A DNA stretch of 43,602 nt, from IMG/VR virus record IMGVR_UViG_2541047812_000007, positions 1 to 43,602 of that record; one strand, 5' to 3'. The translations under genes were made by a program, and so were the position numbers. The stretch is from a virus. Taxonomy: Duplodnaviria > Heunggongvirae > Uroviricota > Caudoviricetes. This document shows, piece after piece, positions 1 to 42,318 of this stretch. How positions within the stretch are numbered: position 1 is the first letter of the stretch; every line of letters starts with the position of its first letter. The notes beneath the pieces are model-generated. The model did no database searches. It had not been told where the DNA came from and saw only the letters and a list, made by a program, of their open reading frames with translations.

Positions 1-516
1 ATGAAATTTAAAAAATGTCTTCTGCCTGTGGCAATGTTAGCGTCATTCACTCTGGCAGGATGCCAGTCAAATGCTGATGATCATGCCGCCGATGTTTATC
101 AAACCGATCAACTGAATACCAAACAAGAAACTAAAACCGTTAATATTATTTCCATTCTTCCCGCAAAAGTTGCCGTAGACAACGCCCAAAATAAACGGAA
201 CGCACAAGCCTTCGGCGCGCTTATTGGCGCTGTCGCTGGCGGTGTTATCGGCCACAACGTCGGGTCTGGCAGCAATTCCGGAACGACGGCAGGTGCAGTT
301 GGCGGCGGAGCTGTAGGCGCGGCAGCGGGTTCGATGGTGAATGATAAAACCTTAGTGGAAGGTGTTTCTTTAACATATAAGGAAGGCACCAAAGTGTATA
401 CCTCCACCCAGGTGGGTAAAGAGTGCCAGTTTACGACAGGTTTAGCCGTTGTTATTACCACGACGTATAACGAAACGCGTATTCAGCCAAATACCAAATG
501 TCCTGAAAAGAGCTAA
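1..516 (+). CDS. Exported lipoprotein with glycine-zipper region; probable host flank
   Basis: ORF with signal peptide and lipobox LAGC; Gly/Ala-rich GxxxG-type stretch (GALIGAVAGGVIGH). Family not identified with certainty. Confidence 0.65.
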   Translation: MKFKKCLLPVAMLASFTLAGCQSNADDHAADVYQTDQLNTKQETKTVNIISILPAKVAVDNAQNKRNAQAFGALIGAVAGGVIGHNVGSGSNSGTTAGAVGGGAVGAAAGSMVNDKTLVEGVSLTYKEGTKVYTSTQVGKECQFTTGLAVVITTTYNETRIQPNTKCPEKS

Positions 517-531
517 TAATCAGGAGGAGTC

Positions 532-1071
532 ATGAAGAAAGTTTTTCTTTGCGCCATCTTAGCCTCCTTAAGCTATCCGGCTATCGCCTCATCATTGCAG
601 GATCAACTCTCGGCTGTCGCAGAAGCGGAACAGCAAGGTAAAAATGAAGAGCAAAGGCAGCATGACGAATGGGTCGCGGAGCGCAACAGGGAAATCCAGC
701 AAGAGAAGCAACGTCGCGCAAACGCCCAGGCCGCGGCTAATAAAAGAGCGGCAACGGCAGCAGCGAATAAGAAAGCTCGTCAGGATAAACTGGACGCCGA
801 AGCCACTGCGGACAAAAAACGCGATCAAAGTTATGAAGATGAGCTACGTAGCTTAGAGATTCAGAAACAAAAACTGGCGCTGGCGAAAGAAGAAGCCCGC
901 GTCAAGCGCGAAAACGAATTTATCGATCAGGAACTGAAGCACAAAGCTGCGCAAACCGATGTGGTGCAATCTGAAGCTGACGCAAACAGAAATATGACTG
1001 AAGGCGGTCGCGATCTGATGAAAAGCGTGGGCAAAGCAGAAGAGAACAAATCGGACAGCTGGTTTAATTAA
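532..1071 (+). CDS. Secreted charged coiled-coil protein; probable host flank
   Basis: SD (AGGAGG) then ATG; N-terminal signal peptide ending AIA-SS; rest is highly charged Q/E/K/R/A-rich. Confidence 0.6.
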   Translation: MKKVFLCAILASLSYPAIASSLQDQLSAVAEAEQQGKNEEQRQHDEWVAERNREIQQEKQRRANAQAAANKRAATAAANKKARQDKLDAEATADKKRDQSYEDELRSLEIQKQKLALAKEEARVKRENEFIDQELKHKAAQTDVVQSEADANRNMTEGGRDLMKSVGKAEENKSDSWFN

Positions 1072-3361: not shown

Positions 3362-3390
3362 CCCGCAAAATATTGCGGGCTTTTTTTTAA
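3362..3390 (+). terminator. Hairpin plus T-run at the tailspike 3' end
   Basis: CCCGCAA-aat-ATTGCGGG followed by TTTTTTTT on the plus strand; the minus-strand version has a weaker U-tract. Confidence 0.4.
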
Positions 3391-6300
3391 CGTTCTTCCA
3401 GAGACTGAATCCGCTCTTTTATCTTATCCATTTCTCTGCGCTGCCATGCCGCCTCGATATAGAATAAGAGATCAGGTCTGACCCCCCATCTAGATCCTGC
3501 TGGCGTTATTTCAACGCGCTCAATGATGTCTTCCATTACCATCACTGGATTATCATCCTCATCAACAATGATGCTCCCGTCATTATCAGTCAGCGGCATT
3601 TCCCTTTGGCCAGTAATGACGTCATCATATACTGCGGGATAATCGTCATAGCAAAGAAAGGCATAGCGGCATGTTGTGCTTTCTTCTTCCATGAGTCCGT
3701 GAGAAATAAGAACATCACGAAGTTGCTGCGCGATTACACCATGATGTATCCTCGCTCCTTCTTCCCCCTTTATAGCGACAGCGTTCAGCCATTTATAAGC
3801 GATATACCTGACGTCACCCCAGGCATCCAGCAATGCTTCGTCAGGAGAGACCGGCTCTGTCTTTAATGTTCCGTCACTGGTAACCACAGGATTGGAGCCA
3901 AGATAAACTGTCGAGAACCTGTTTCCCGGACCACCAAGAGCATTTACATTATCAAGATAAGGTTTAACATCTCCGTTCTCAAAAAGATGTTCGAGTGCGT
4001 TATATACCGCGCGACGTGGAGTACTGCTTCCGGAACCATGCAACGTTATCATTGCACCATCTGCTGAAGACGTTGTTTCACCGCCGCTAACGATTAATCT
4101 CTGAGCGGTAACATCATCAGACGGTACTTTCTTCGCAATAATGGCGTAATTACCCTCAAGTTTGACTTCCGCGCGAACTTGTCCTGATGTACCTGCATGG
4201 ACAGTCAGTGACTGGACGGCAACATCATCTGTGAAATCAACGGGTACAGGAACCGTCCTCACGCCTGACGTCGACATAAAAGTAGGAAGCGTTCTGTTAG
4301 GAGTGGCTCCGTAGACAAAATCCCTTGAAACAAATTCTTCCTGTTTAATTTTCACCCTGAAACAATACAAATCAGCCGGGTGACCATCGTGAACATAAGG
4401 ATATTTTCTGTTGTTATCCCCTATGCTCCATGGGTTTAGAAAGTCTTCCCCACCGAAAATGTAGTACAGCCAGTTGTCTTTGATACAAACTGAACCAACA
4501 CCAACCGCAGAGTTAACTATTCCGCCCTGATAAATCTGATCAGTAACATTAACCCACTCTACATTATCCAGACTCCACTCATTGACGTTAACTCTGGTCA
4601 TAAATGTTCTTGGATAATTTCCTGCATAACGGTTATCAGGTTCTCCTCCTTCCCACTCACCAAATGCGCGCTCACTGCCAAAAATAATCAGCTCATCGCC
4701 AACTTTGGCAAAAGGAAGGTTTGAGTGATGAACATTATTTGGGAAGCGAAGAGAATTCCATGATGTACCTAAATCAGAGCTTCTGTGCAATGAACTACCG
4801 GGTTGAGTACTTAATGTCCCCCTGGTCGTCAGATACAGAATGCCATCATAATATTTTACACATGGCTCAGATGCATTCGCCTCATATTCTGCAGGTATGC
4901 GTCTGCGAACAAAGCTACCAGGAGAACCGAAAGCATCAGAGAAATAGAGTATCCCAAGCTCGCGTGGACCAATATCACCATTATGGTAGCCAACAGCAAA
5001 ACTGTTATCGCTAATCGTCGCAAAACTGTGAATCTCAGTAACAGGAGTGCTTCCGTCAACAAAAGAAGGAATAGTTCCAAGACTGGTTTTTCTCCATGGT
5101 GACGAGTGAAATGATGTACCAAAACTCCAGTATCTACCCTCGTTATTCTGATCCACATCCTGGGTATTTTGCGTCGTAACTGTAAAAGTATTTTTATCAA
5201 TAACAGTAGTCACCGTCATATTCCCGGTAACACCTGTAACACCAGAGTTTGAGAAGTTGACAAAATCACCAGCAAATAATCCGTGATCAGTAATGCGAAT
5301 ATAAGCGACTTGCTGATTTGCTGCTTTCGTTATACCACCATAAACGCGAAGGCTGCGACTCATTGGGCGATCCCACAACTCTGCAACCTGCAGTTTATTT
5401 CCTCTCACGGTCCGCGTCTCAATTACAGCAAAAAGGCGATTTCTGACAACCCCCATACTCATGCAGTGATAGTTAACTGTGGGATAGTTTTCATGTAAAT
5501 CTGTAAGCCATTCCGGCGTTGTCCAGGTCTTCCCGTCATCTCCTGAGCGAACCCATGCAACATGGAGGTTATTTACACCATGGCGGTCTCCAGCCATAAA
5601 AGGCGCATAGATGACATTGTCATATACAAACGTTTTATCCTGCGTCCAGGCGTTGTACCACGGTGTATCTGTAATTTTAAATAACTCTCCCTGGATAAAA
5701 TCTTCAGAAGCATAAAAAAGAGGCTGGCCCGGTATTCTCTCAAATAAAAAACGAGCATTTTTAAATCGACTGACATCCGGAAGAGTTGATACTTTAAAAG
5801 TAAGCCCTAATCCGTCAATTTTATAACCTGGAGATGAGGCTTCAAGGCACGCGCTTATTGCAGTGGAATCGTCATTTATACCATCACCAACAGCTCCAAA
5901 ATCTTTGGGGCTAATAGCATCACGCATTTTATCCTGGAACGTTCGGTACACAGCCCCAGAACCATACTGAATAAACCAACCAAAACCACCAACAACCCCG
6001 GCGATTGCAGCATCGACATAATTACGCATTGAGCGATTATTTACAGCGTCCTGCTCAAATGATGGATCTGCAAGGTTAGAAATTTTGTTTTGCTTTGCAT
6101 CGTAATATTTTGCAAGCAAAGATGGTTTCATCAATGCACGTCTGAACCACCCAAAACATTGCTGGATCAGCATCGTCAGGTAGTCAAAGGCATCTTCATG
6201 CACTTCGGGGAAAAATTTTCCCTGATTGCGAAGGTCTGTCTCCTGCACTACATCAAGCACACGATCTATCGTAATTCGCCATCCAGTAGCAAGCGGAGAC

Positions 6301-6506
6301 GGAAGAACCACAGAACCGCCACTATAAGTGCCCGCCCCAGTTACCGTATAACCGGTATCCAGAACCAATTCTGTTACGTTTCCGTTCAGGTCAGACACCT
6401 GAACAACCAGGTCTGATTTTCTGAAAATTCGAAAAGTATACGGAAACGATGTCGTAACGCCGTTACCGGTGTATTCGTTGTGGTCAACTTCGGTTGAGAC
6501 CGTCAT
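3387..6506 (-). CDS. Tailspike/tail fibre: T7 gp17-like N-terminal domain, sialidase-like Asp-box domain, C-terminal intramolecular chaperone-like domain
   Basis: N-terminus resembles T7 tail-fibre N-domain (YTGNGVTTSFPYTF..RKSDLVV); two Asp-boxes SGDDGKTW (nt ~5523-5546) and SSDLGTSW (nt ~4758-4781); last ~160 aa resemble the autoproteolytic chaperone domain of endosialidase-type tailspikes. SD GGAG before ATG. Confidence 0.8.
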   Translation of the reverse strand: MTVSTEVDHNEYTGNGVTTSFPYTFRIFRKSDLVVQVSDLNGNVTELVLDTGYTVTGAGTYSGGSVVLPSPLATGWRITIDRVLDVVQETDLRNQGKFFPEVHEDAFDYLTMLIQQCFGWFRRALMKPSLLAKYYDAKQNKISNLADPSFEQDAVNNRSMRNYVDAAIAGVVGGFGWFIQYGSGAVYRTFQDKMRDAISPKDFGAVGDGINDDSTAISACLEASSPGYKIDGLGLTFKVSTLPDVSRFKNARFLFERIPGQPLFYASEDFIQGELFKITDTPWYNAWTQDKTFVYDNVIYAPFMAGDRHGVNNLHVAWVRSGDDGKTWTTPEWLTDLHENYPTVNYHCMSMGVVRNRLFAVIETRTVRGNKLQVAELWDRPMSRSLRVYGGITKAANQQVAYIRITDHGLFAGDFVNFSNSGVTGVTGNMTVTTVIDKNTFTVTTQNTQDVDQNNEGRYWSFGTSFHSSPWRKTSLGTIPSFVDGSTPVTEIHSFATISDNSFAVGYHNGDIGPRELGILYFSDAFGSPGSFVRRRIPAEYEANASEPCVKYYDGILYLTTRGTLSTQPGSSLHRSSDLGTSWNSLRFPNNVHHSNLPFAKVGDELIIFGSERAFGEWEGGEPDNRYAGNYPRTFMTRVNVNEWSLDNVEWVNVTDQIYQGGIVNSAVGVGSVCIKDNWLYYIFGGEDFLNPWSIGDNNRKYPYVHDGHPADLYCFRVKIKQEEFVSRDFVYGATPNRTLPTFMSTSGVRTVPVPVDFTDDVAVQSLTVHAGTSGQVRAEVKLEGNYAIIAKKVPSDDVTAQRLIVSGGETTSSADGAMITLHGSGSSTPRRAVYNALEHLFENGDVKPYLDNVNALGGPGNRFSTVYLGSNPVVTSDGTLKTEPVSPDEALLDAWGDVRYIAYKWLNAVAIKGEEGARIHHGVIAQQLRDVLISHGLMEEESTTCRYAFLCYDDYPAVYDDVITGQREMPLTDNDGSIIVDEDDNPVMVMEDIIERVEITPAGSRWGVRPDLLFYIEAAWQRREMDKIKERIQSLEER

Positions 6507-6610
6507 GTTAAATCTCCAGATAGTCGCAGCACCCGTTGCGCCGCATATCTGGTTATTCTATTACCTGAAAAACCACATATGGATAGAAAGACTGTAAATA
6601 CGAATAGATA

Positions 6611-6625
6611 TTACCTTTCAGGTAA
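6611..6625. promoter_or_regulatory. Palindromic operator-like site TTACCTTTCAGGTAA
   Basis: Perfect TTACC-N5-GGTAA inverted repeat; identical 15-mer recurs at 26205-26219. Confidence 0.4.
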
Positions 6626-6662
6626 TTTGCAAAACGTGCTGGATAGCAAACAAATTATTTGC

Positions 6663-6682
6663 TACTGTATAAATATACAGTT
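6663..6682. promoter_or_regulatory. LexA (SOS) box
   Basis: TACTGTATAAATATACAGTT, a CTGT-N8-ACAG palindrome two mismatches from the LexA consensus, about 20 nt upstream of the ATG at 6702. Confidence 0.7.
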
Positions 6683-6701
6683 ATTGCATGGAGAAGATAA
6701 G

Positions 6702-6959
6702 ATGCAGCAGTATCACTATCCACTGGAAGACGGATTTACCGAAAGGATTCACACGCCGGGAGGCGTCAGGTCACTGGTGGAGGGATCGCACTTGATGAAA
6801 TTACTCCGGGATCTCGATAAGGATGGATTTAATGTCGATGGCCCACTTGCCGAACTGACTGCACTGATTAACTACGTCACCAGCTCACAGATGTCTATGC
6901 AGGATCTGCAAACACATCTCGACTATTGTGCCGAACAATTACGAAAACAAACCAGATAA
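6702..6959 (+). CDS. Small (85 aa) antirepressor-domain protein, predicted SOS-inducible
   Basis: SD GGAGAAG 5 nt before ATG; protein aligns with the shared C-terminal domain of the three larger antirepressors (HSPSGV / HTPGGV, DIQTHAEY / DLQTHLDY). Start moved from ORF-track 6579 to 6702. Confidence 0.6.
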   Translation: MQQYHYPLEDGFTERIHTPGGVRSLVEGSHLMKLLRDLDKDGFNVDGPLAELTALINYVTSSQMSMQDLQTHLDYCAEQLRKQTR

Positions 6960-6962
6960 GAT

Positions 6963-6991
6963 TTGAAATTACCAATAGGAGTGCTTATATT
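6963..6991 (+). promoter_or_regulatory. Sigma70-like promoter TTGAAA-17bp-TATATT
   Basis: Near-consensus -35 and -10 with 17-bp spacer; predicted start site falls inside the operator-like palindrome at 6991-7005. Confidence 0.5.
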
Positions 6992-7005
6992 TACCTTTGC
7001 GGTAA
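6991..7005. promoter_or_regulatory. Palindromic operator-like site TTACCTTTGCGGTAA
   Basis: TTACC-N5-GGTAA inverted repeat overlapping the promoter -10 and start site. Confidence 0.4.
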
Positions 7006-7118
7006 ATTTACATCGCACTCCTCTTGTGCCATAGTAATCGGGCACTGGCAAAATCCAGTGCCGGGATTGGCGTCCCGGATTACTAAAAGGCGCATTCACC
7101 GCGCAAGCGGTTTTTTTA
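6998..7118 (+). ncRNA. Candidate small RNA or terminated leader (about 120 nt)
   Basis: Runs from the predicted promoter to an intrinsic terminator (ACCGC-gcaa-GCGGT plus T7 at 7098-7118); contains nested GC-rich hairpins; the overlapping ORFs have no SD and poor context. Confidence 0.3.
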
Positions 7119-7274
7119 TGCGTATAGCACGGCCACATTCGTATTATGGTGGGCTGTGTGGGGGCACCGAAAGGTGCGCCGGGTCCTTTTAGCCGGTTAC
7201 GCCAACCCTGCACAGTTCACCACCAACCGATTGGCGTCGGTAGTGGTGATTAACCAGACTAAAAGGTAACCACT

Positions 7275-7970
7275 ATGACAGCTACAAAAAGCACGTCCAT
7301 TTTTTCTTTCGAATCCCAAGCCGATATACGGGTAATCGTCATTAATGGTGAGCCATGGTTTATCGCTTCAGATGTTTGTCGGGCTATAGGCATAGCAAAC
7401 CATCGAGATGCTGTTCGAAAACTTGATGATGATGAGAAGGGCGTCGCTTCAACCGACACCCCTGGCGGTGAGCAAGAATCGATCATCATCTCCGAGTCAG
7501 GCCTCTACACACTGATCCTCCGCTGCCGCGACGCAGTGACACCAGGCACTATCCCCTACCGCTTTCGTAAATGGGTTACAGGTGAGGTTCTTCCTCAGAT
7601 CCGCCGCACCGGAAGTTACATTAAAAACTCGCTCCCGCAGGAAGAACGCATAAAGATGGTTGCCGACCAGGTAGCCAGCGCCACAGCATCAGCAGTGATG
7701 CAGGCAATGAAGGTAGAGAACAAAACCTACAGCGCCCCGCTGAAGCCCGGCTACCGCAGCCTGATTCACTCGCCGTCTGGTGTTCTCGGCCTGACGGAGA
7801 ACTCACTGCTGATGAATCTGCTGAACCAGTTACAGGACGACGGGCACGACGTATCGGGCGCGGCGGCGGAGCTGACCACCATGTTCTGCTACATCGTCGG
7901 TGTGAGCAAATGCCTGCGTGATATCCAGACCCACGCGGAGTACATCAACGACAAGGCAGGGTTCTTCTGA
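7275..7970 (+). CDS. Antirepressor, Bro-N N-terminal domain plus shared antirepressor C-terminal domain
   Basis: N-terminus has the Bro-N pattern (IRVIVINGEPWFIASDVCRAIG); C-terminal ~80 aa nearly identical to the C-termini of 9088-10026 and 41668-42318. Confidence 0.8.
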   Translation: MTATKSTSIFSFESQADIRVIVINGEPWFIASDVCRAIGIANHRDAVRKLDDDEKGVASTDTPGGEQESIIISESGLYTLILRCRDAVTPGTIPYRFRKWVTGEVLPQIRRTGSYIKNSLPQEERIKMVADQVASATASAVMQAMKVENKTYSAPLKPGYRSLIHSPSGVLGLTENSLLMNLLNQLQDDGHDVSGAAAELTTMFCYIVGVSKCLRDIQTHAEYINDKAGFF

Positions 7971-9063: not shown

Positions 9064-9318
9064 GCACGTCCCTGTGCCGCCGTTCTGTCAGAAGAACCCT
9101 GCCTTGTCGTTGATGTATTCCGCGTGCGTCTGGATATCACGCAGGCATTTGCTCACACCAACGATGTAGCAGAACATGGTGGTCAGCTCCGCCGCCGCGC
9201 CCGATACATCGTGCCCGTCTTCCTGTAACTGGTTCAGCAGATTCATCAGCAGTGAGTTCTCCGTCAGGCCGAGAACACCCGACGGCGAATGAATCAGACT
9301 GCGGTAGCCTGGCTTCAA
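9064..9318 (-). repeat. Copy 2 (inverted) of the ~260-bp antirepressor 3' repeat
   Basis: Reverse complement aligns with 7729-7993 and 42073-42341 with few substitutions. Confidence 0.8.
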
Positions 9319-10026
9319 TGGATAACCATAACATTTTGTCTGTGTTTTAATTGCCTCACGAAGCGCATCTAACATCTTGACTGCCACTTCATCATTCTCT
9401 GATGCAGATCCAGCAGGGAGATACTCCCCTTCAAGCGGAACCCGAGCAACAAGAGACAACGCTTCGGCAAATTGATCTTCACCAATTTCTTTGTACGAAC
9501 AGCCAAAATGAGATTTCAGTGACGACCACATGGTGATCATCGCCTTAGCCTGTTTTTCTTTTGGCAGAGACTGACCGCGACTCATGACGAGTTGTTTAAT
9601 GGCTTCCTGCTGTTCAGTTGTTATTTTACCCGGCAACGCCTTTTTAGCTTTGCGTGGGTTAACCACATGGCCTTTAGTCCAGTACTCGTAGAGCACATCG
9701 TCACACTCTTCCTGATACTGGATTACCTTGTCGCGGATTTCAGGGCGGACTTTGTTAGGGCTGATGCTGTTCAACCAAGCTGCCAATTTTCGTAAAGCCA
9801 TACAAATCATGGCTTGCACCCCACCGGCAGAAGGTATGGTGATTTCCACCATACCCTTCGAGAAGCGTTGAGAAATCTTCTTATGTTGAGATTTCCAGTC
9901 TAGCCCCATTCCCTCAACGATAGGTTTCATTGGGGTATACGGTTCGCCGTTGTGATTGACAACATAAAGCTCTGCGCCGTGGAATGGCACGTTGATAGTA
10001 GATACTGCTGTTGCTATACTCGTCAT
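9088..10026 (-). CDS. Antirepressor (ant-like), distinct N-terminal domain plus shared C-terminal domain
   Basis: 312 aa; SD AGGA before ATG; sits downstream of an Arc-like gene as in P22 immI; C-terminus shared with the other antirepressors. Confidence 0.8.
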   Translation of the reverse strand: MTSIATAVSTINVPFHGAELYVVNHNGEPYTPMKPIVEGMGLDWKSQHKKISQRFSKGMVEITIPSAGGVQAMICMALRKLAAWLNSISPNKVRPEIRDKVIQYQEECDDVLYEYWTKGHVVNPRKAKKALPGKITTEQQEAIKQLVMSRGQSLPKEKQAKAMITMWSSLKSHFGCSYKEIGEDQFAEALSLVARVPLEGEYLPAGSASENDEVAVKMLDALREAIKTQTKCYGYPLKPGYRSLIHSPSGVLGLTENSLLMNLLNQLQEDGHDVSGAAAELTTMFCYIVGVSKCLRDIQTHAEYINDKAGFF

Positions 10027-10098
10027 GTCGTTAATTCCTATACGTAGTTTTACGATACTGAAGCCCTGACGGTCTGGCCACCGTGGGGCTTCGCTGTT

Positions 10099-10266
10099 TT
10101 ATGCCACGCTATTCTTCTCACCAGTGAGTCCATACACTTTCCTCAGCTGATAGATAATCTCTGTATTGAACTTTCGGCATTCTTTTTCGCCATTTCTTTC
10201 AATAGCTAACTTCACATCGTCCGGAAAACGAACTCGTCGTTGACACATCTCTTTTGCTTTTTGCAT
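10099..10266 (-). CDS. Arc-like ribbon-helix-helix repressor
   Basis: 55 aa from internal ATG with SD AAGGAG 7 nt upstream; resembles P22 Arc (RFPDDVKLAIERNG...NTEIIYQLRK). Confidence 0.6.
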   Translation of the reverse strand: MQKAKEMCQRRVRFPDDVKLAIERNGEKECRKFNTEIIYQLRKVYGLTGEKNSVA

Positions 10267-10280
10267 TTCATATCTCCTTA

Positions 10281-10295
10281 GCCCCACCGTGGGGC
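10281..10295. promoter_or_regulatory. Palindrome GCCCCACCGTGGGGC upstream of the arc-like gene
   Basis: Inverted repeat next to the arc SD; core CCACCGTGG recurs at 10078-10086 and 29359-29367. Confidence 0.35.
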
Positions 10296-10386
10296 AAAAT
10301 AATTGTCACACCGTGCGTCATTGATGTCAAGCACACGGTGAGGCATACTTCAATCATTGCAAGTAACTCAATATTTGGTGAAGAAC

Positions 10387-10818
10387 ATGAGCAGAGAAGA
10401 TCCACAACTAAGGATCAGACTTCCCGTCGAAGTAAAAGAAAAAATAGAAATTTCTGCAAAAGCCAATAAGCGATCAATGAACGCTGAAATAGTACAACGT
10501 CTTGACACCAGCTTTCTGAAAGATATTCATGAAGATGACGTAATTTCTGCTTATGAAGCAAAAATCATTGCAAACAATGCACGACATGAAATATCAAATA
10601 TTATTTTCAAAAGAACCTTTAATGAAATTAATAAGAAAATAACACTTGGACATACAAGTTTTTATATAAACCTTAATGACCTTGAACTGGAATCACTTGC
10701 AGATAATGATTACCAGATCATCTTTGAAAAAACATTTAATAGGCTCAATGAACTAGGTTACATCATCTGTGAAAACTCATGGGATGCAGATGGTTTTGGA
10801 ATTGAAATACCTGAATAG
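10387..10818 (+). CDS. Mnt-like ribbon-helix-helix regulator with a ~95-aa C-terminal extension
   Basis: N-terminus resembles P22 Mnt/Arc (LRIRLPVEVKEKIEISAKANKRSMNAEIVQRL); divergent from arc/ant; AT-rich C-terminal domain of unknown family. Confidence 0.6.
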   Translation: MSREDPQLRIRLPVEVKEKIEISAKANKRSMNAEIVQRLDTSFLKDIHEDDVISAYEAKIIANNARHEISNIIFKRTFNEINKKITLGHTSFYINLNDLELESLADNDYQIIFEKTFNRLNELGYIICENSWDADGFGIEIPE

Positions 10819-26541: not shown

Positions 26542-26618
26542 GTGGCATTAGCTCAGTTGGACAGAGCAACCGCCTTCTAAGCGGTTGGTCGCAGGTTCGA
26601 ATCCTGCATGCCACGCCA
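26542..26618 (+). tRNA. tRNA-Arg, anticodon UCU (reads AGA)
   Basis: 77-nt cloverleaf folded by hand: acceptor GTGGCAT/ATGCCAC, D-arm GCTC/GAGC, anticodon stem ACCGC/GCGGT with loop CTTCTAA, T-arm GCAGG-TTCGAAT-CCTGC, discriminator G, encoded CCA. Confidence 0.9.
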
Positions 26619-35429: not shown

Positions 35430-35660
35430 TCATGAGTAGAAGAAGTATGCCAGTTCTGCTTTTGAGCGCAGCCATTGTCTTGTTTTACAGGCTTTAAAAA
35501 GCCCATTCATCAATACCTTACCTGGCATTTTGCGCTTGCCTGTTAAGTGAGTCTGGATATAGTGACTCGTCGTTCCGGCTTCCTGTGCGAAGGCTTCACG
35601 CTCATCCGGAGTAAGTGCAAGCCAGTGCTTTTTGAAATCGAAATGTCCGTTATCGCTCAT
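35430..35660 (-). CDS. Cro-like small HTH regulator
   Basis: 76 aa, divergent from the repressor gene across the operator cluster. Confidence 0.55.
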   Translation of the reverse strand: MSDNGHFDFKKHWLALTPDEREAFAQEAGTTSHYIQTHLTGKRKMPGKVLMNGLFKACKTRQWLRSKAELAYFFYS

Positions 35661-35695
35661 AGCTATTGCCTGATATTTATTTCAGATAATAAATA

Positions 35696-35759
35696 TTCAC
35701 CCATAAGGTAACAAAAATCAAGGATGGTTACCTATGAGGTGCATTTACCTGTTGGGTAA
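35696..35759. promoter_or_regulatory. Tripartite operator cluster in the divergent cro/repressor intergenic region
   Basis: TCACCCATAAGGTAA (35696-35710), TTACCTATGAGGTGC (35728-35742), TTACCTGTTGGGTAA (35745-35759). Confidence 0.5.
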
Positions 35760-35814
35760 TATTGCTTTAAATTGAATCATCTACTGATTCATATATGAGG
35801 CGATTTTCCAGAAA

Positions 35815-36399
35815 ATGAAAAGTATCCAGGACGTCCGCAGGCAAAATCTCAACGACTTGATCGACCGTGAATTCAATGGTGTTCAGACGCGGATGGCAGA
35901 AAAACTTGGAACTCAGGCAAATCTGGTAAACCGCTGGGCTCTTGGCAAGAAGGTTATCGGCGACCAGGTTGCGCGAAAAATTGAAGCTGCCGCCAATAAA
36001 CCCCGTAACTGGCTTGATATCGATCGCTCGCTTTCTCAGGAAGGTTTTCAGCCTGTCGGCCCAAGCGACATTGGTCAGCTGGCGGCTCACAACCTGGAAC
36101 GCTGGATGAGCGAAAGCCGCGACCTTTCAACACAGGGAAAACTTCACCGCGCATCCGGCGTCGCCCAGGTGACAATCAGCCGCCTGTTAAACAATGAGGT
36201 CAGCGTTTCCATTTCCACCCTGGAGAATGTTGCATCCGCATTCGGGCGTCACGGATATGAACTACTGATTCACCCGCACGACCCTGCGACTATCAACTAT
36301 GACCGCTCACGCTACGCATTGTTACCCGAAACCGAGAAAGCAAAGATCGAAAGTTACATTGAATTTGTCATCAACCAGAACGAAAAAAGCAAACAATAA
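35815..36399 (+). CDS. Prophage repressor with two HTH motifs and no peptidase domain
   Basis: 194 aa; two XRE-type HTH segments; no S24-like autocleavage motifs seen in the C-terminal part. Confidence 0.7.
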   Translation: MKSIQDVRRQNLNDLIDREFNGVQTRMAEKLGTQANLVNRWALGKKVIGDQVARKIEAAANKPRNWLDIDRSLSQEGFQPVGPSDIGQLAAHNLERWMSESRDLSTQGKLHRASGVAQVTISRLLNNEVSVSISTLENVASAFGRHGYELLIHPHDPATINYDRSRYALLPETEKAKIESYIEFVINQNEKSKQ

Positions 36400-41343: not shown

Positions 41344-41667
41344 AATCACGCCTGACGAATCGCGATTATCTCGCTATTGGTATTGCAGAGATTGCTGGAC
41401 TCAATGGCGCATGATTTGACAATGCCGCCAGAGCTATCGCATACTGACCGCACTAGAAAACAAACAGCGGTCATCCGCACCCGATAGCTTTGCGGCTTTT
41501 TTATGCCTGCAATCTGGCATAGTCACATCCGTACAAAGGTCGGGTGGAGAGGCGTAATACAACACCCGAAAGGGGAATATGCCCGGAGCTACTGTTTGTG
41601 CTCTAGTTGACACCCGATCACCAGCTACTAACTGGTTTTCGTAACTAAAAACAAACAGGAGGTCATC

Positions 41668-42318
41668 ATGACCAGTCAACTCATCCCCGTATTCAACGGC
41701 ACTATATCCAACGAAACCGCTCTTCTCGTTAATGCCCGTGATTTACACACTTTCCTCGATGTGGGTAAGCGATTTGCTTCGTGGATTGTCGAACGAATTG
41801 CTGAATATGGTTTCGTTGAAAATCAAGACTTTATGATTATTTCCCAAGTTCGGGAAAAAATAGGCAGAGGCCGTCCTGCAAAAGACTACCACCTCACCCT
41901 CGATACAGCCAAAGAGCTGGCGATGGTCGAGCGTAATGAAAAAGGTCGTCAGGTACGACGCTACTTCATTGAATGCGAGAAACGTTTAAGACAACAAGAA
42001 ACAAAAGTGGAGAAGGTCTTGTCAGGCTTCATGCCCGCCATTATGGAGGCGATCAAGCTGGAAGACAAAAAAGAATACAGTGCCCCACTGAAGCCCGGCT
42101 ACCGCAGCCTGATTCACTCGCCGTCTGGTGTTCTCGGCCTGACGGAGCGCTCACTGCTGATGAATCTGCTGAACCAGTTACAGGACGACGGGCACGACGT
42201 ATCGGGCGCGGCGGCGGAGCTGACCACCATGTTCTGCTACATCGTCGGTGTGAGCAAATGCCTGCGTGATATCCAGACTCACGCGGAGTACATCAACGAC
42301 AAGGCAGGGTTCTTCTGA
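41668..42318 (+). CDS. Antirepressor, AntA-like N-terminal domain plus shared C-terminal domain
   Basis: Strong SD AGGAGG; N-terminal pattern DLHTFLDVGKRFASWIVERIAEYGFVENQDF; C-terminal ~80 aa shared with 7275-7970 and 9088-10026. Confidence 0.8.
   Translation: MTSQLIPVFNGTISNETALLVNARDLHTFLDVGKRFASWIVERIAEYGFVENQDFMIISQVREKIGRGRPAKDYHLTLDTAKELAMVERNEKGRQVRRYFIECEKRLRQQETKVEKVLSGFMPAIMEAIKLEDKKEYSAPLKPGYRSLIHSPSGVLGLTERSLLMNLLNQLQDDGHDVSGAAAELTTMFCYIVGVSKCLRDIQTHAEYINDKAGFF

What the first reader, a model, noticed from the sequence alone, without database searches (positions are those of the whole stretch)
6663..6959. LexA-boxed mini-antirepressor paired with a repressor that lacks a peptidase domain
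A near-consensus LexA box (TACTGTATAAATATACAGTT) lies directly upstream of an 85-aa gene whose product consists only of the C-terminal domain shared by the three larger antirepressors. The immunity repressor (35815-36399) has two HTH motifs and no recognisable autocleavage domain. Together this predicts SOS induction through an antirepressor rather than repressor self-cleavage, as described for Gifsy-type prophages and phage 186 Tum. The gene lies about 29 kb from the immunity region, next to the tailspike.
Basis: partly seen in the sequence, partly recalled or inferred. Interest (0 to 1): 0.7.

Follow-up and report, generated by a model that had tools for sequence, protein, structure and literature searches.

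The report
LexA-controlled Ant antirepressor (SPC32H-type), known
The small gene behind a LexA box is the E. coli counterpart of the already published and crystallised Ant antirepressor of Salmonella phage SPC32H, which switches on the prophage after DNA damage by binding a repressor that cannot cut itself, so the finding is real but not new.

Summary
A LexA box (6663-6682, 18 of 20 consensus bases, the only such site in the window) lies 20 nt upstream of an 85-aa gene (6702-6959). The gene sits next to the tailspike, 29 kb from a 194-aa repressor that has two HTH-like regions and no S24 peptidase domain.

The window is an epsilon15/phiV10-type (Uetakevirus) prophage. The 85-aa protein is 88% identical to the Ant antirepressor of Salmonella phage SPC32H (PDB 5D50 chain E). 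The repressor is a full-length homologue of SPC32H Rep (43% identity; 5D50 chain A).

The LexA box is conserved at the same position in relatives from E. coli, Salmonella, Enterobacter and Klebsiella. The virulent variant SPC32N differs from SPC32H at one base of the ACAG half-site in the aligned 216 nt, equivalent to window C6678.

Beyond the finding, three larger antirepressors (Bro-N, P22_AR_N and AntA N-termini) end in a ~235-nt cassette with very few differences between copies, encoding a 37-40% identical Ant-like domain. Each has its own small-RNA element: isrK plus C4, sar, or sRNA-Xcc1. In the phage collection this domain occurs only in Rep-carrying phages.

Novelty: already known. Interest: low.

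The parts
6663..6682 (.). LexA (SOS) box TACTGTATAAATATACAGTT; C6678 corresponds to the base mutated in the virulent variant SPC32N
   Evidence: 18 of 20 consensus bases, unique in the window, none in 100 shuffles. Conserved at the same column in relatives; SPC32N has ACAG changed to AAAG.
6640..6668 (+). Inferred ant promoter: -35 TGGATA (6640-6645), 17-nt spacer, extended -10 TGcTACTGT (6660-6668) overlapping the left half of the LexA box
   Evidence: Inference from conserved blocks GCTGGATAG and TTTGCTAC-TGT in the 10-phage alignment. The simple consensus scan did not report it.
6702..6959 (+). ant: 85-aa antirepressor, orthologue of SPC32H Ant (= phiV10 p24 = epsilon15 gp19); RBS GGAG at 6690-6693
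   Evidence: phmmer against PDB 5D50_E 'Anti-repressor protein', E 4e-47. 88.2% identity to SPC32H ant. Annotated ant in KC911856. phrog_450, E 9e-48.
6611..6625 (.). Rep operator-type palindrome TTACC-N5-GGTAA between tailspike and ant, starting a fixed 53-54 nt before the LexA-box core in the 8 relatives scanned
   Evidence: 13 such sites in the window against 0.75 expected. The same site is annotated 'protein_bind: repressor' in epsilon15. Spacing.
35815..36399 (+). rep: 194-aa immunity repressor, two HTH-like regions, no S24 peptidase domain; orthologue of SPC32H Rep
   Evidence: PDB 5D50_A 'Repressor', E 3.5e-42 over residues 1-190. 42.7% identity to the annotated rep of SPC32H. Domain scans.
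35661..35814 (.). rep/cro-like intergenic switch region with two operator palindromes (35697-35711, 35745-35759)
   Evidence: Divergent Cro-like gene 35430-35660 (minus strand) matches phrog_35.
7275..7970 (+). Large antirepressor 1: Bro-N N-terminus plus Ant-like C-terminal domain (residues ~148-229)
   Evidence: Pfam Bro-N, E 2.5e-21. phrog_450, E 6e-36. 5D50_E, E 1.9e-13.
7042..7227 (+). isrK-type sRNA (7042-7117) and C4 antisense RNA (7142-7227) in the leader of the Bro-N antirepressor; a Rep operator at 6991-7005 lies just upstream
   Evidence: Rfam gathering-level hits, 77.9 and 77.7 bits. Operator. Promoter-like sites at 6963-6991 and 7007-7035.
9088..10026 (-). Large antirepressor 2: P22_AR_N N-terminus plus Ant-like C-terminal domain (residues ~230-310)
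   Evidence: Pfam P22_AR_N, E 6e-45. phrog_450, E 1.6e-35. 5D50_E, E 6.8e-14.
10028..10095 (+). sar-type antisense RNA opposite the leader of antirepressor 2; a divergent Arc/Mnt-type RHH gene lies at 10357-10818 (P22 immI-like layout)
   Evidence: Rfam sar, 44.8 bits against a gathering score of 43. Pfam Arc, E 1.2e-14.
41668..42318 (+). Large antirepressor 3: AntA N-terminus plus Ant-like C-terminal domain (residues ~133-214)
   Evidence: Pfam AntA, E 8e-28. phrog_450, E 1e-35. tblastn hit.
41538..41627 (+). sRNA-Xcc1-type RNA directly upstream of antirepressor 3
   Evidence: Rfam, 64.8 bits against a gathering score of 53.

Best explanation
This is the SOS input of an SPC32H-type (Uetakevirus) lysis-lysogeny switch. 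In the lysogen, host LexA occupies the box at 6663-6682, which overlaps the -10 region of the ant promoter, and keeps the 85-aa Ant off. Rep (35815-36399) holds the lytic promoters shut by binding the TTACC-N5-GGTAA operators. DNA damage activates RecA, LexA cleaves itself and ant is transcribed. Ant binds Rep as a stoichiometric partner and takes the DNA-binding Rep oligomer apart, so Rep leaves its operators without being cleaved and lytic growth starts.

Shown here: the homology of both proteins to the crystallised pair, the LexA box and its conservation, the absence of a peptidase domain, and synteny. Taken from the literature on the homologue: LexA control, Ant-Rep binding, tetrameric Ant splitting a Rep tetramer. 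Inferred: that the E. coli pair behaves the same way, and the exact promoter elements.
For: Ant matches PDB 5D50 chain E at E 4e-47 and is 88% identical to SPC32H Ant. Rep matches 5D50 chain A at E 3.5e-42 over its full length and 5D4Z over residues 89-190. The SPC32H genes are annotated ant and rep, in the same order: tailspike divergent from ant, followed by virion genes.

The LexA box is unique in the window and absent from shuffles. It is conserved in 9 of 10 aligned Uetakevirus upstream regions from four host genera. In the two Klebsiella phages the left half reads ATGT. The exception is SPC32N, whose only difference from SPC32H in the aligned 216 nt is C to A in the ACAG half-site.

No S24 domain was found in Rep. 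Ant and Rep co-occur: 35 and 37 phage records respectively, essentially the same Uetakevirus-type set.

Literature: PMC7380047 states that in S. enterica prophages LexA cleavage allows an antirepressor to be made that inhibits the repressor by protein-protein contact, citing Kim and Ryu 2013. PMC9638917 describes Ant as a tetramer that binds two Rep dimers and breaks the Rep tetramer. E. coli prophages of the species Uetakevirus phiV10 were induced 21- and 47-fold by microcin Mcc1229, one of the DNA-damaging bacteriocins studied in bioRxiv 10.64898/2026.05.26.727859.
Against: Rep here is only 43% identical to SPC32H Rep while Ant is 88% identical, so binding between this particular pair is inferred, not shown. 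The simple sigma-70 scan did not call a promoter over the LexA box. The primary papers (Kim and Ryu 2013; Kim et al. 2016) are not in the held library, so mechanistic details rest on secondary citations and my memory. Three further Ant-domain proteins in the same prophage could make the small Ant redundant for induction.
Confidence: 0.9

Rival explanations
1. The 85-aa gene is a decayed fragment, the orphaned C-terminal end of a once larger antirepressor, with no function of its own. Induction would then depend on the three full-size antirepressors.
For: It consists only of the domain found at the C-terminus of the three larger proteins. A 97-aa stand-alone version of the other domain variant occupies the slot of the AntA gene in another E. 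coli prophage and could be a truncation.
Against: The 85-86-aa form, with its own RBS, ATG and LexA box, is conserved in all 35 Uetakevirus-type phage records. These include Salmonella phages that have no large antirepressor at all. The 86-aa protein was crystallised in complex with Rep. It is only 37-40% identical to the large proteins' domains, so it is not a recent fragment of them.
Confidence: 0.03
2. The LexA box mainly regulates the divergent tailspike gene or is a chance palindrome, and ant is expressed independently of SOS.
For: The box lies in a shared 195-nt intergenic region with the tailspike start at 6506. The simple scan called no promoter over it.
Against: The box ends 19 nt before the ant ATG but lies 157 nt from the tailspike start. 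No site of that quality appeared in 100 shuffles. It is conserved across four host genera. In the aligned 216 nt the only SPC32H/SPC32N difference falls in this box; from memory of Kim and Ryu 2013, that change makes Ant constitutive.
Confidence: 0.03
3. The small Ant is one of four interchangeable triggers. The prophage is induced mainly through the RNA-gated large antirepressors, or these serve as anti-immunity factors on superinfection. The LexA-Ant arm would then be a minor or redundant input in this E. coli lineage.
For: Three extra Ant-domain proteins sit behind isrK/C4, sar and sRNA-Xcc1 elements. Their C-terminal domain tracks Rep divergence more closely than the small Ant does. For E. 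coli, Tyrion and Klebsiella phages the domain is 94-100, 79 and 54% identical, Rep is 99, 78 and 45%, and the small Ant is 98-100, 86 and 58-63%.
Against: No LexA box lies near the large genes, so they cannot account for DNA-damage induction. Salmonella relatives manage with the small Ant alone. In phiV10 itself the Bro-N gene is split in two pieces.
Confidence: 0.04

Closest known systems
Ant/Rep antirepression switch of Salmonella phage SPC32H (Kim and Ryu 2013, J Virol 87:11775; Kim et al. 2016, PNAS 113:E2480; PDB 5D50, 5D4Z)
   Same: Same genus (Uetakevirus). Ant is orthologous (88% identity, 85 against 86 aa) and Rep is orthologous over its full length. The LexA box sits at the same position upstream of ant, the Rep operator palindrome lies 54 nt upstream of it, and the gene neighbourhood next to the tailspike is the same.
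   Different: The host is E. coli and the tailspike is a K1 endosialidase. Rep is only 43% identical. This prophage adds three large antirepressors with an Ant-like C-terminal domain and their sRNA controls, which SPC32H lacks.
LexA-controlled antirepressors Tum (coliphage 186) and GfoA/GfhA (Gifsy prophages; Lemire et al. 2011, PMC3121763)
   Same: The logic is the same: a non-cleavable repressor, a small antirepressor gene repressed by LexA, and induction by protein-protein inactivation.
   Different: No sequence relationship was detected. tblastn of Ant against 50,697 phage records finds only Uetakevirus-type phages. The protein fold and the repressor family differ. From memory, the SPC32H authors called it a structurally distinct class.
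P22 immI (mnt-arc-ant-sar) and P1 immI (c4-icd-ant) antirepressor modules
   Same: The three large antirepressors carry P22_AR_N, Bro-N or AntA N-termini with sar, C4/isrK or Xcc1-type RNAs upstream. These are the RNA-gated layouts of the classical modules.
   Different: They are not LexA controlled. Here their C-terminal domain is an Ant-like domain which, in the phage collection, was found only in Rep-carrying phages. The small LexA-boxed Ant has none of the N-terminal domains.
Lambda cI / LexA-type repressors with an S24 autocleavage domain
   Same: Both are immunity repressors with an N-terminal HTH, divergent from a cro-like gene.
   Different: No S24 domain is present, and the C-terminal half is a second HTH-like domain. 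Inactivation is by a partner protein, not by RecA-stimulated self-cleavage.

Membership tests
SPC32H-type Ant/Rep switch (Uetakevirus) | Small (~86 aa) stand-alone Ant homologous to SPC32H Ant | tested here: met
   5D50_E, E 4e-47 over residues 2-84. 88.2% identity to KC911856 ant.
SPC32H-type Ant/Rep switch (Uetakevirus) | Repressor homologous to SPC32H Rep over both domains, with no autocleavage domain | tested here: met
   5D50_A, E 3.5e-42 over residues 1-190; 5D4Z over 89-190. 42.7% identity to the annotated rep. No S24 match.
SPC32H-type Ant/Rep switch (Uetakevirus) | LexA box directly upstream of ant, overlapping its promoter | tested here: met
   Box at 6663-6682, in the same alignment columns as the SPC32H box; the SPC32N mutation maps to C6678. 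Overlap with the promoter is inferred from conserved -35 and extended -10 blocks, not measured.
SPC32H-type Ant/Rep switch (Uetakevirus) | Synteny: ant divergent from the tailspike, far from rep, in an epsilon15-like genome | tested here: met
SPC32H-type Ant/Rep switch (Uetakevirus) | Ant physically binds and inactivates Rep; LexA binds the box; induction is SOS- and ant-dependent | not testable with these tools
   Known only for the Salmonella homologue. Indirect support in E. coli: phiV10-species prophages were induced by microcin Mcc1229.
186 Tum / Gifsy Gfo-type antirepressors | Sequence homology to Tum or GfoA/GfhA | tested here: not met
   tblastn of Ant against the phage collection (E<=1e-3) hits only 35 Uetakevirus-type records. 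No Pfam or NCBIfam family matched. Caveat: I did not check that 186 and the Gifsy phages are in the collection.
186 Tum / Gifsy Gfo-type antirepressors | LexA-repressed small antirepressor acting on a non-cleavable repressor (functional definition) | tested here: met
   At sequence level only: LexA box plus a repressor without S24.
S24 (LexA/cI-type) autocleaving repressors | Peptidase_S24 domain | tested here: not met
   No S24 match at E<=0.1 in Pfam or at E<=0.01 in NCBIfam. The whole protein aligns to a crystallised repressor of 199 aa.

The most novel reading that the evidence does not exclude
The Ant fold may be a portable, Rep-specific binding module. This prophage would then hold four separately wired triggers for one repressor. 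One is the small Ant under LexA (SOS). The other three are large antirepressors with unrelated N-terminal domains (Bro-N, P22_AR_N, AntA). Each ends in a near-identical ~235-nt copy of an Ant-like domain and each is gated by a different small RNA (isrK/C4, sar, sRNA-Xcc1).

The domain, whether stand-alone or fused, was found in the phage collection only in Rep-carrying phages, and the fused version diverges in step with Rep. This fits co-evolution with Rep, and gene conversion keeping the three copies matched to the resident Rep. If so, the large proteins could provide SOS-independent induction, or anti-immunity against homoimmune residents on superinfection.
Probability: 0.3. Interest if true: 0.5.

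Novelty: already known. Interest (0 to 1): 0.2.

Why it matters
The mechanism itself is published, so the main value is in annotation. The unit is present in 531 of 5,426 complete E. coli genomes and the listed RefSeq matches call the gene 'hypothetical protein'. Neither Pfam nor NCBIfam has a model for Ant. Gene callers often choose a 126-aa ORF that swallows the LexA box and the operator.

Recognising it tells us that these common prophages of E. coli, including K1 strains and O157-associated phiV10-type phages, are induced through LexA and Ant rather than repressor cleavage. That matters for predicting induction by DNA-damaging antibiotics and bacteriocins. The side observation, three extra antirepressors sharing one near-identical Ant-like cassette behind different small RNAs, is the part that may merit an experiment.

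Tried and rejected
- **S24 domain in Rep:** I searched Pfam at E<=0.1 and NCBIfam and found none.
- **Other LexA boxes:** I checked whether the large antirepressors or the immunity region carry one. There is none within 3 mismatches of the consensus. The two other CTGT-N8-ACAG matches (22192, 26740) lack the AT-rich core.
- **Promoter over the box:** the simple promoter scan did not call one. The promoter proposed here rests on conserved blocks only.
- **Primary papers:** I tried to read Kim and Ryu 2013 (PMC3807360), Kim et al. 2016 (PMC4983836) and the epsilon15 genome paper (PMC2698709). None is held.
- **N-terminal partners of the large-antirepressor domain:** I searched the big protein database with this domain to list its partners. 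Only short proteins came back, so it gave no architecture census.
- **Two of those short proteins in context:** one sits in the AntA slot of another E. coli Uetakevirus prophage next to int and guaA. The other lies in what looks like a prophage remnant in metagenome contigs; its cluster carries a Raoultella name. Neither changed the picture.
- **Arc at 10099-10287 (minus strand):** I tested whether this 62-aa ORF is Arc and found no support.
- **'Decayed fragment' and 'chance palindrome' readings:** both were considered and rejected (see rival explanations).

Full report
**1. What the window is**

The region around the finding is 99% identical to Escherichia phage vB_EcoP_ZX5 and 95% identical to phiV10, and about 78% identical to Enterobacter phage Tyrion and Salmonella epsilon15-type phages. 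All of these are Uetakevirus. The window runs from lysis genes and morons at the left, through the tailspike and virion genes, to replication, immunity and recombination genes and an integrase at the right end. It is an epsilon15/phiV10-type temperate podovirus in prophage orientation.

**2. Checking the observation**

- **LexA box.** The sequence at 6663-6682 is TACTGTATAAATATACAGTT. It differs from the 20-nt LexA consensus at two positions. It is the only site in the window within three mismatches, and none appeared in 100 dinucleotide-preserving shuffles.
- **Gene.** GGAG (6690-6693) and ATG (6702) follow the box, giving an 85-aa product that ends at 6959. The mechanical ORF list also gives an in-frame 126-aa ORF from 6579, and many gene callers use it (P0003, 833 member sequences). 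The extra 41 codons cover DNA that carries indels and regulatory palindromes in relatives, and the crystallised homologue has 86 residues. The start is therefore 6702.
- **Shared domain.** tblastn of the 85-aa protein against the window finds three further copies of the domain. These lie at the C-termini of 7275-7970 (Bro-N N-terminus), 9088-10026 on the minus strand (P22_AR_N) and 41668-42318 (AntA), at 40-42% identity and E about 1e-13.
- **Repressor.** The repressor at 35815-36399 has an HTH_3 match at residues 106-147 and a weaker Cro/YdaS-type HTH match at 21-61. It has no S24 peptidase match in Pfam or NCBIfam.

All elements of the observation are confirmed.

**3. What it is**

A sequence search of the Protein Data Bank settles the identity.

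- The 85-aa protein matches 5D50 chain E, 'Anti-repressor protein', at E 4e-47.
- The repressor matches 5D50 chain A, 'Repressor', at E 3.5e-42 over residues 1-190. It also matches 5D4Z, a fragment of that repressor's C-terminal half.
- The phage collection contains the source, Salmonella phage SPC32H (KC911856). Its genes are annotated ant and rep. ant lies divergent from the tailspike exactly as here, and rep is 42.7% identical to the window's repressor over 99% of its length.
- The window's Ant is 88.2% identical to SPC32H Ant, 84.7% to epsilon15 gp19 and 97.6% to phiV10 p24.

**4. The regulatory region**

I aligned the tailspike-ant intergenic region of ten phages: the window, phiV10, SPC32H, SPC32N, epsilon15, Tyrion, BUCT554, PAT1 and two Klebsiella phages.

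- **LexA box.** It occupies the same columns in all ten. In the Klebsiella phages the left half reads ATGT. SPC32N, the virulent sibling of SPC32H, differs from SPC32H at a single base in the aligned 216 nt, the C of the ACAG half-site, which corresponds to window C6678. From memory of Kim and Ryu 2013, this is the mutation that makes Ant constitutive and forces lytic growth. The alignment reproduces the base change itself.
- **Likely promoter.** Two other blocks are invariant or nearly so: GCTGGATAG, and TTTGCTAC-TGT. They read as a -35 (TGGATA, 6640-6645) and an extended -10 (TGcTACTGT, 6660-6668) 17 nt apart, with the -10 inside the LexA box. This is inference; the simple consensus scan did not call it.
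- **Rep operator.** A palindrome, ATTACC-N5-GGTAAT, is also conserved and starts a fixed 53-54 nt before the LexA-box core in the 8 relatives scanned. The epsilon15 record annotates it as a repressor-binding site. In the window TTACC-N5-GGTAA occurs 13 times (one mismatch allowed) against 0.75 expected. The sites lie between genes or at operon starts. They include two in the rep/cro-like intergenic region (35697, 35745) and two downstream of rep (36457, 36519). These are most likely the Rep operators.

**5. How it most likely works**

1. In the lysogen, LexA sits on the ant promoter and Rep sits on its operators.
2. DNA damage leads to LexA self-cleavage and ant is transcribed.
3. Ant binds Rep and dismantles the DNA-binding oligomer.
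4. Rep comes off the DNA uncleaved and the lytic promoters fire.

The literature held in the library supports this for the homologue. PMC7380047 cites Kim and Ryu 2013 for antirepressor-mediated SOS induction in Salmonella prophages. PMC9638917 summarises the structural work: Rep binds DNA as a tetramer, and the tetrameric Ant binds two Rep dimers and breaks the tetramer. A 2025 preprint describes Ant as acting through a conformational change in Rep. For E. coli, a 2026 preprint reports 21- and 47-fold induction of phiV10-species Uetakevirus prophages by microcin Mcc1229, one of the DNA-damaging bacteriocins it studied.

What remains inferred is that this Ant binds this Rep, which shares only 43% identity with the crystallised one. 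Strict co-occurrence supports it: Rep is in 37 phage records and Ant in 35, essentially the same Uetakevirus-type set out of 50,697 records.

**6. Comparison with known systems**

This is a member of the SPC32H Ant/Rep family; every sequence-level defining feature was tested and met. It is not related to them in sequence as far as tblastn, Pfam and NCBIfam can tell. It is not an S24-type repressor system.

**7. What lies beyond the finding**

- **A shared 3' cassette.** The three large antirepressors have unrelated N-terminal domains. Their last ~235 nt show only a few differences between the three copies, with a sharp boundary where similarity begins. Over an 86-residue window that includes the junction, the encoded ends are 90-93% identical to each other and 37-40% identical to Ant.
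- **A small RNA for each.** isrK plus C4 lies upstream of the Bro-N gene, with a Rep operator just before it. sar lies antisense to the leader of the P22_AR_N gene, with a divergent Arc/Mnt-type gene. sRNA-Xcc1 lies upstream of the AntA gene.
- **Restricted to Rep-carrying phages.** In the phage collection the fused domain variant occurs only in Rep-carrying Uetakevirus-type phages (32 records). Its identity tracks Rep divergence. For E. coli, Tyrion and Klebsiella phages the domain is 94-100, 79 and 54% identical, while Rep is 99, 78 and 45%. The Salmonella members have no large copy.

This pattern fits the idea that the Ant fold is the Rep-binding module and that the large proteins are extra, SOS-independent inputs or anti-immunity factors. 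I could not test binding. I also do not know whether the original authors described these fusions.

**8. Verdict**

The feature is real, correctly read, and already known. The residual value is an annotation gap: the unit is in 531 of 5,426 complete E. coli genomes, the listed matches are named 'hypothetical protein', and no Pfam or NCBIfam model exists. The multi-antirepressor architecture is the other point worth noting.

Noticed in passing
window 7735-7970 (+), 9088-9323 (-), 42083-42318 (+): The last ~235 nt of three antirepressor genes with unrelated N-terminal domains (Bro-N, P22_AR_N, AntA) differ at only a few positions, and similarity starts at a sharp boundary. This looks like a shared cassette kept uniform by recombination or gene conversion. 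It encodes an Ant-like domain.
   Followed up: partly
window 7042-7117, 7142-7227, 10028-10095, 41538-41627: Rfam gathering-level hits to isrK, C4 antisense RNA, sar RNA and sRNA-Xcc1. Each lies directly upstream of, or antisense to the leader of, one of the three large antirepressor genes. The isrK/C4 stretch is the part of the region that also matches many Stx phages at about 80%.
   Followed up: partly
window 6611, 6991, 8041, 26205, 29356, 29374, 33396, 33458, 35360, 35697, 35745, 36457, 36519: There are 13 copies of the palindrome TTACC-N5-GGTAA (one mismatch allowed; 0.75 expected), lying between genes or at operon starts and often in pairs 18-62 bp apart. These are probably Rep operators spread over the whole genome rather than confined to the immunity region. 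The half-site is the same in phages whose Rep is only 43-45% identical.
   Followed up: partly
window 6702-6959 versus 35815-36399: Across the genus Ant is far better conserved than its presumed target. Against SPC32H, Ant is 88% identical and Rep 43%; against Klebsiella phages, Ant is about 62% and Rep 45%. This is unexplained. It could mean that the interface is a small conserved patch, or that Ant acts across immunity types.
   Followed up: no
window 3387-6506 (-): The tailspike is a K1-capsule endosialidase, with End_N_terminal, beta-propeller, beta-barrel, End_tail_spike and Peptidase_S74 chaperone domains, set on an epsilon15-type N-terminus. Exact matches to the ant region occur in K1 and cerebrospinal-fluid E. 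coli isolates such as CE10 O7:K1.
   Followed up: no
window 6579-6959: Gene callers frequently call a 126-127-aa ORF starting at 6579 (for example P0003 with 833 member sequences). This buries the LexA box and the Rep operator inside a coding annotation. The listed RefSeq matches name the gene 'hypothetical protein', and no Pfam or NCBIfam model exists.
   Followed up: yes
window 26542-26618 (+): A tRNA-Arg (anticodon TCT) gene lies among the minus-strand packaging and head genes.
   Followed up: no
window 1-516 and 532-1071 (+): Moron-like genes sit at the left prophage end: a glycine-zipper/TraT-like protein and a DUF5384 protein. PHROGs labels the first one 'DNA methyltransferase', which looks like a mislabel given the Pfam hits.
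   Followed up: no
L001 (phiV10) 3867-4546: In phiV10 itself the Bro-N antirepressor is split into two ORFs (p23 and p22). Its Ant-like C-terminal domain is matched in two pieces, so this copy is probably frameshifted.
   Followed up: no
L014 3001-3294: In another E. coli Uetakevirus prophage, integrated next to guaA, the slot between the MT-A70 methyltransferase and the integrase holds a 97-aa stand-alone copy of the large-antirepressor type of Ant domain, in place of the sRNA-Xcc1 plus AntA-Ant gene seen here.
   Followed up: partly
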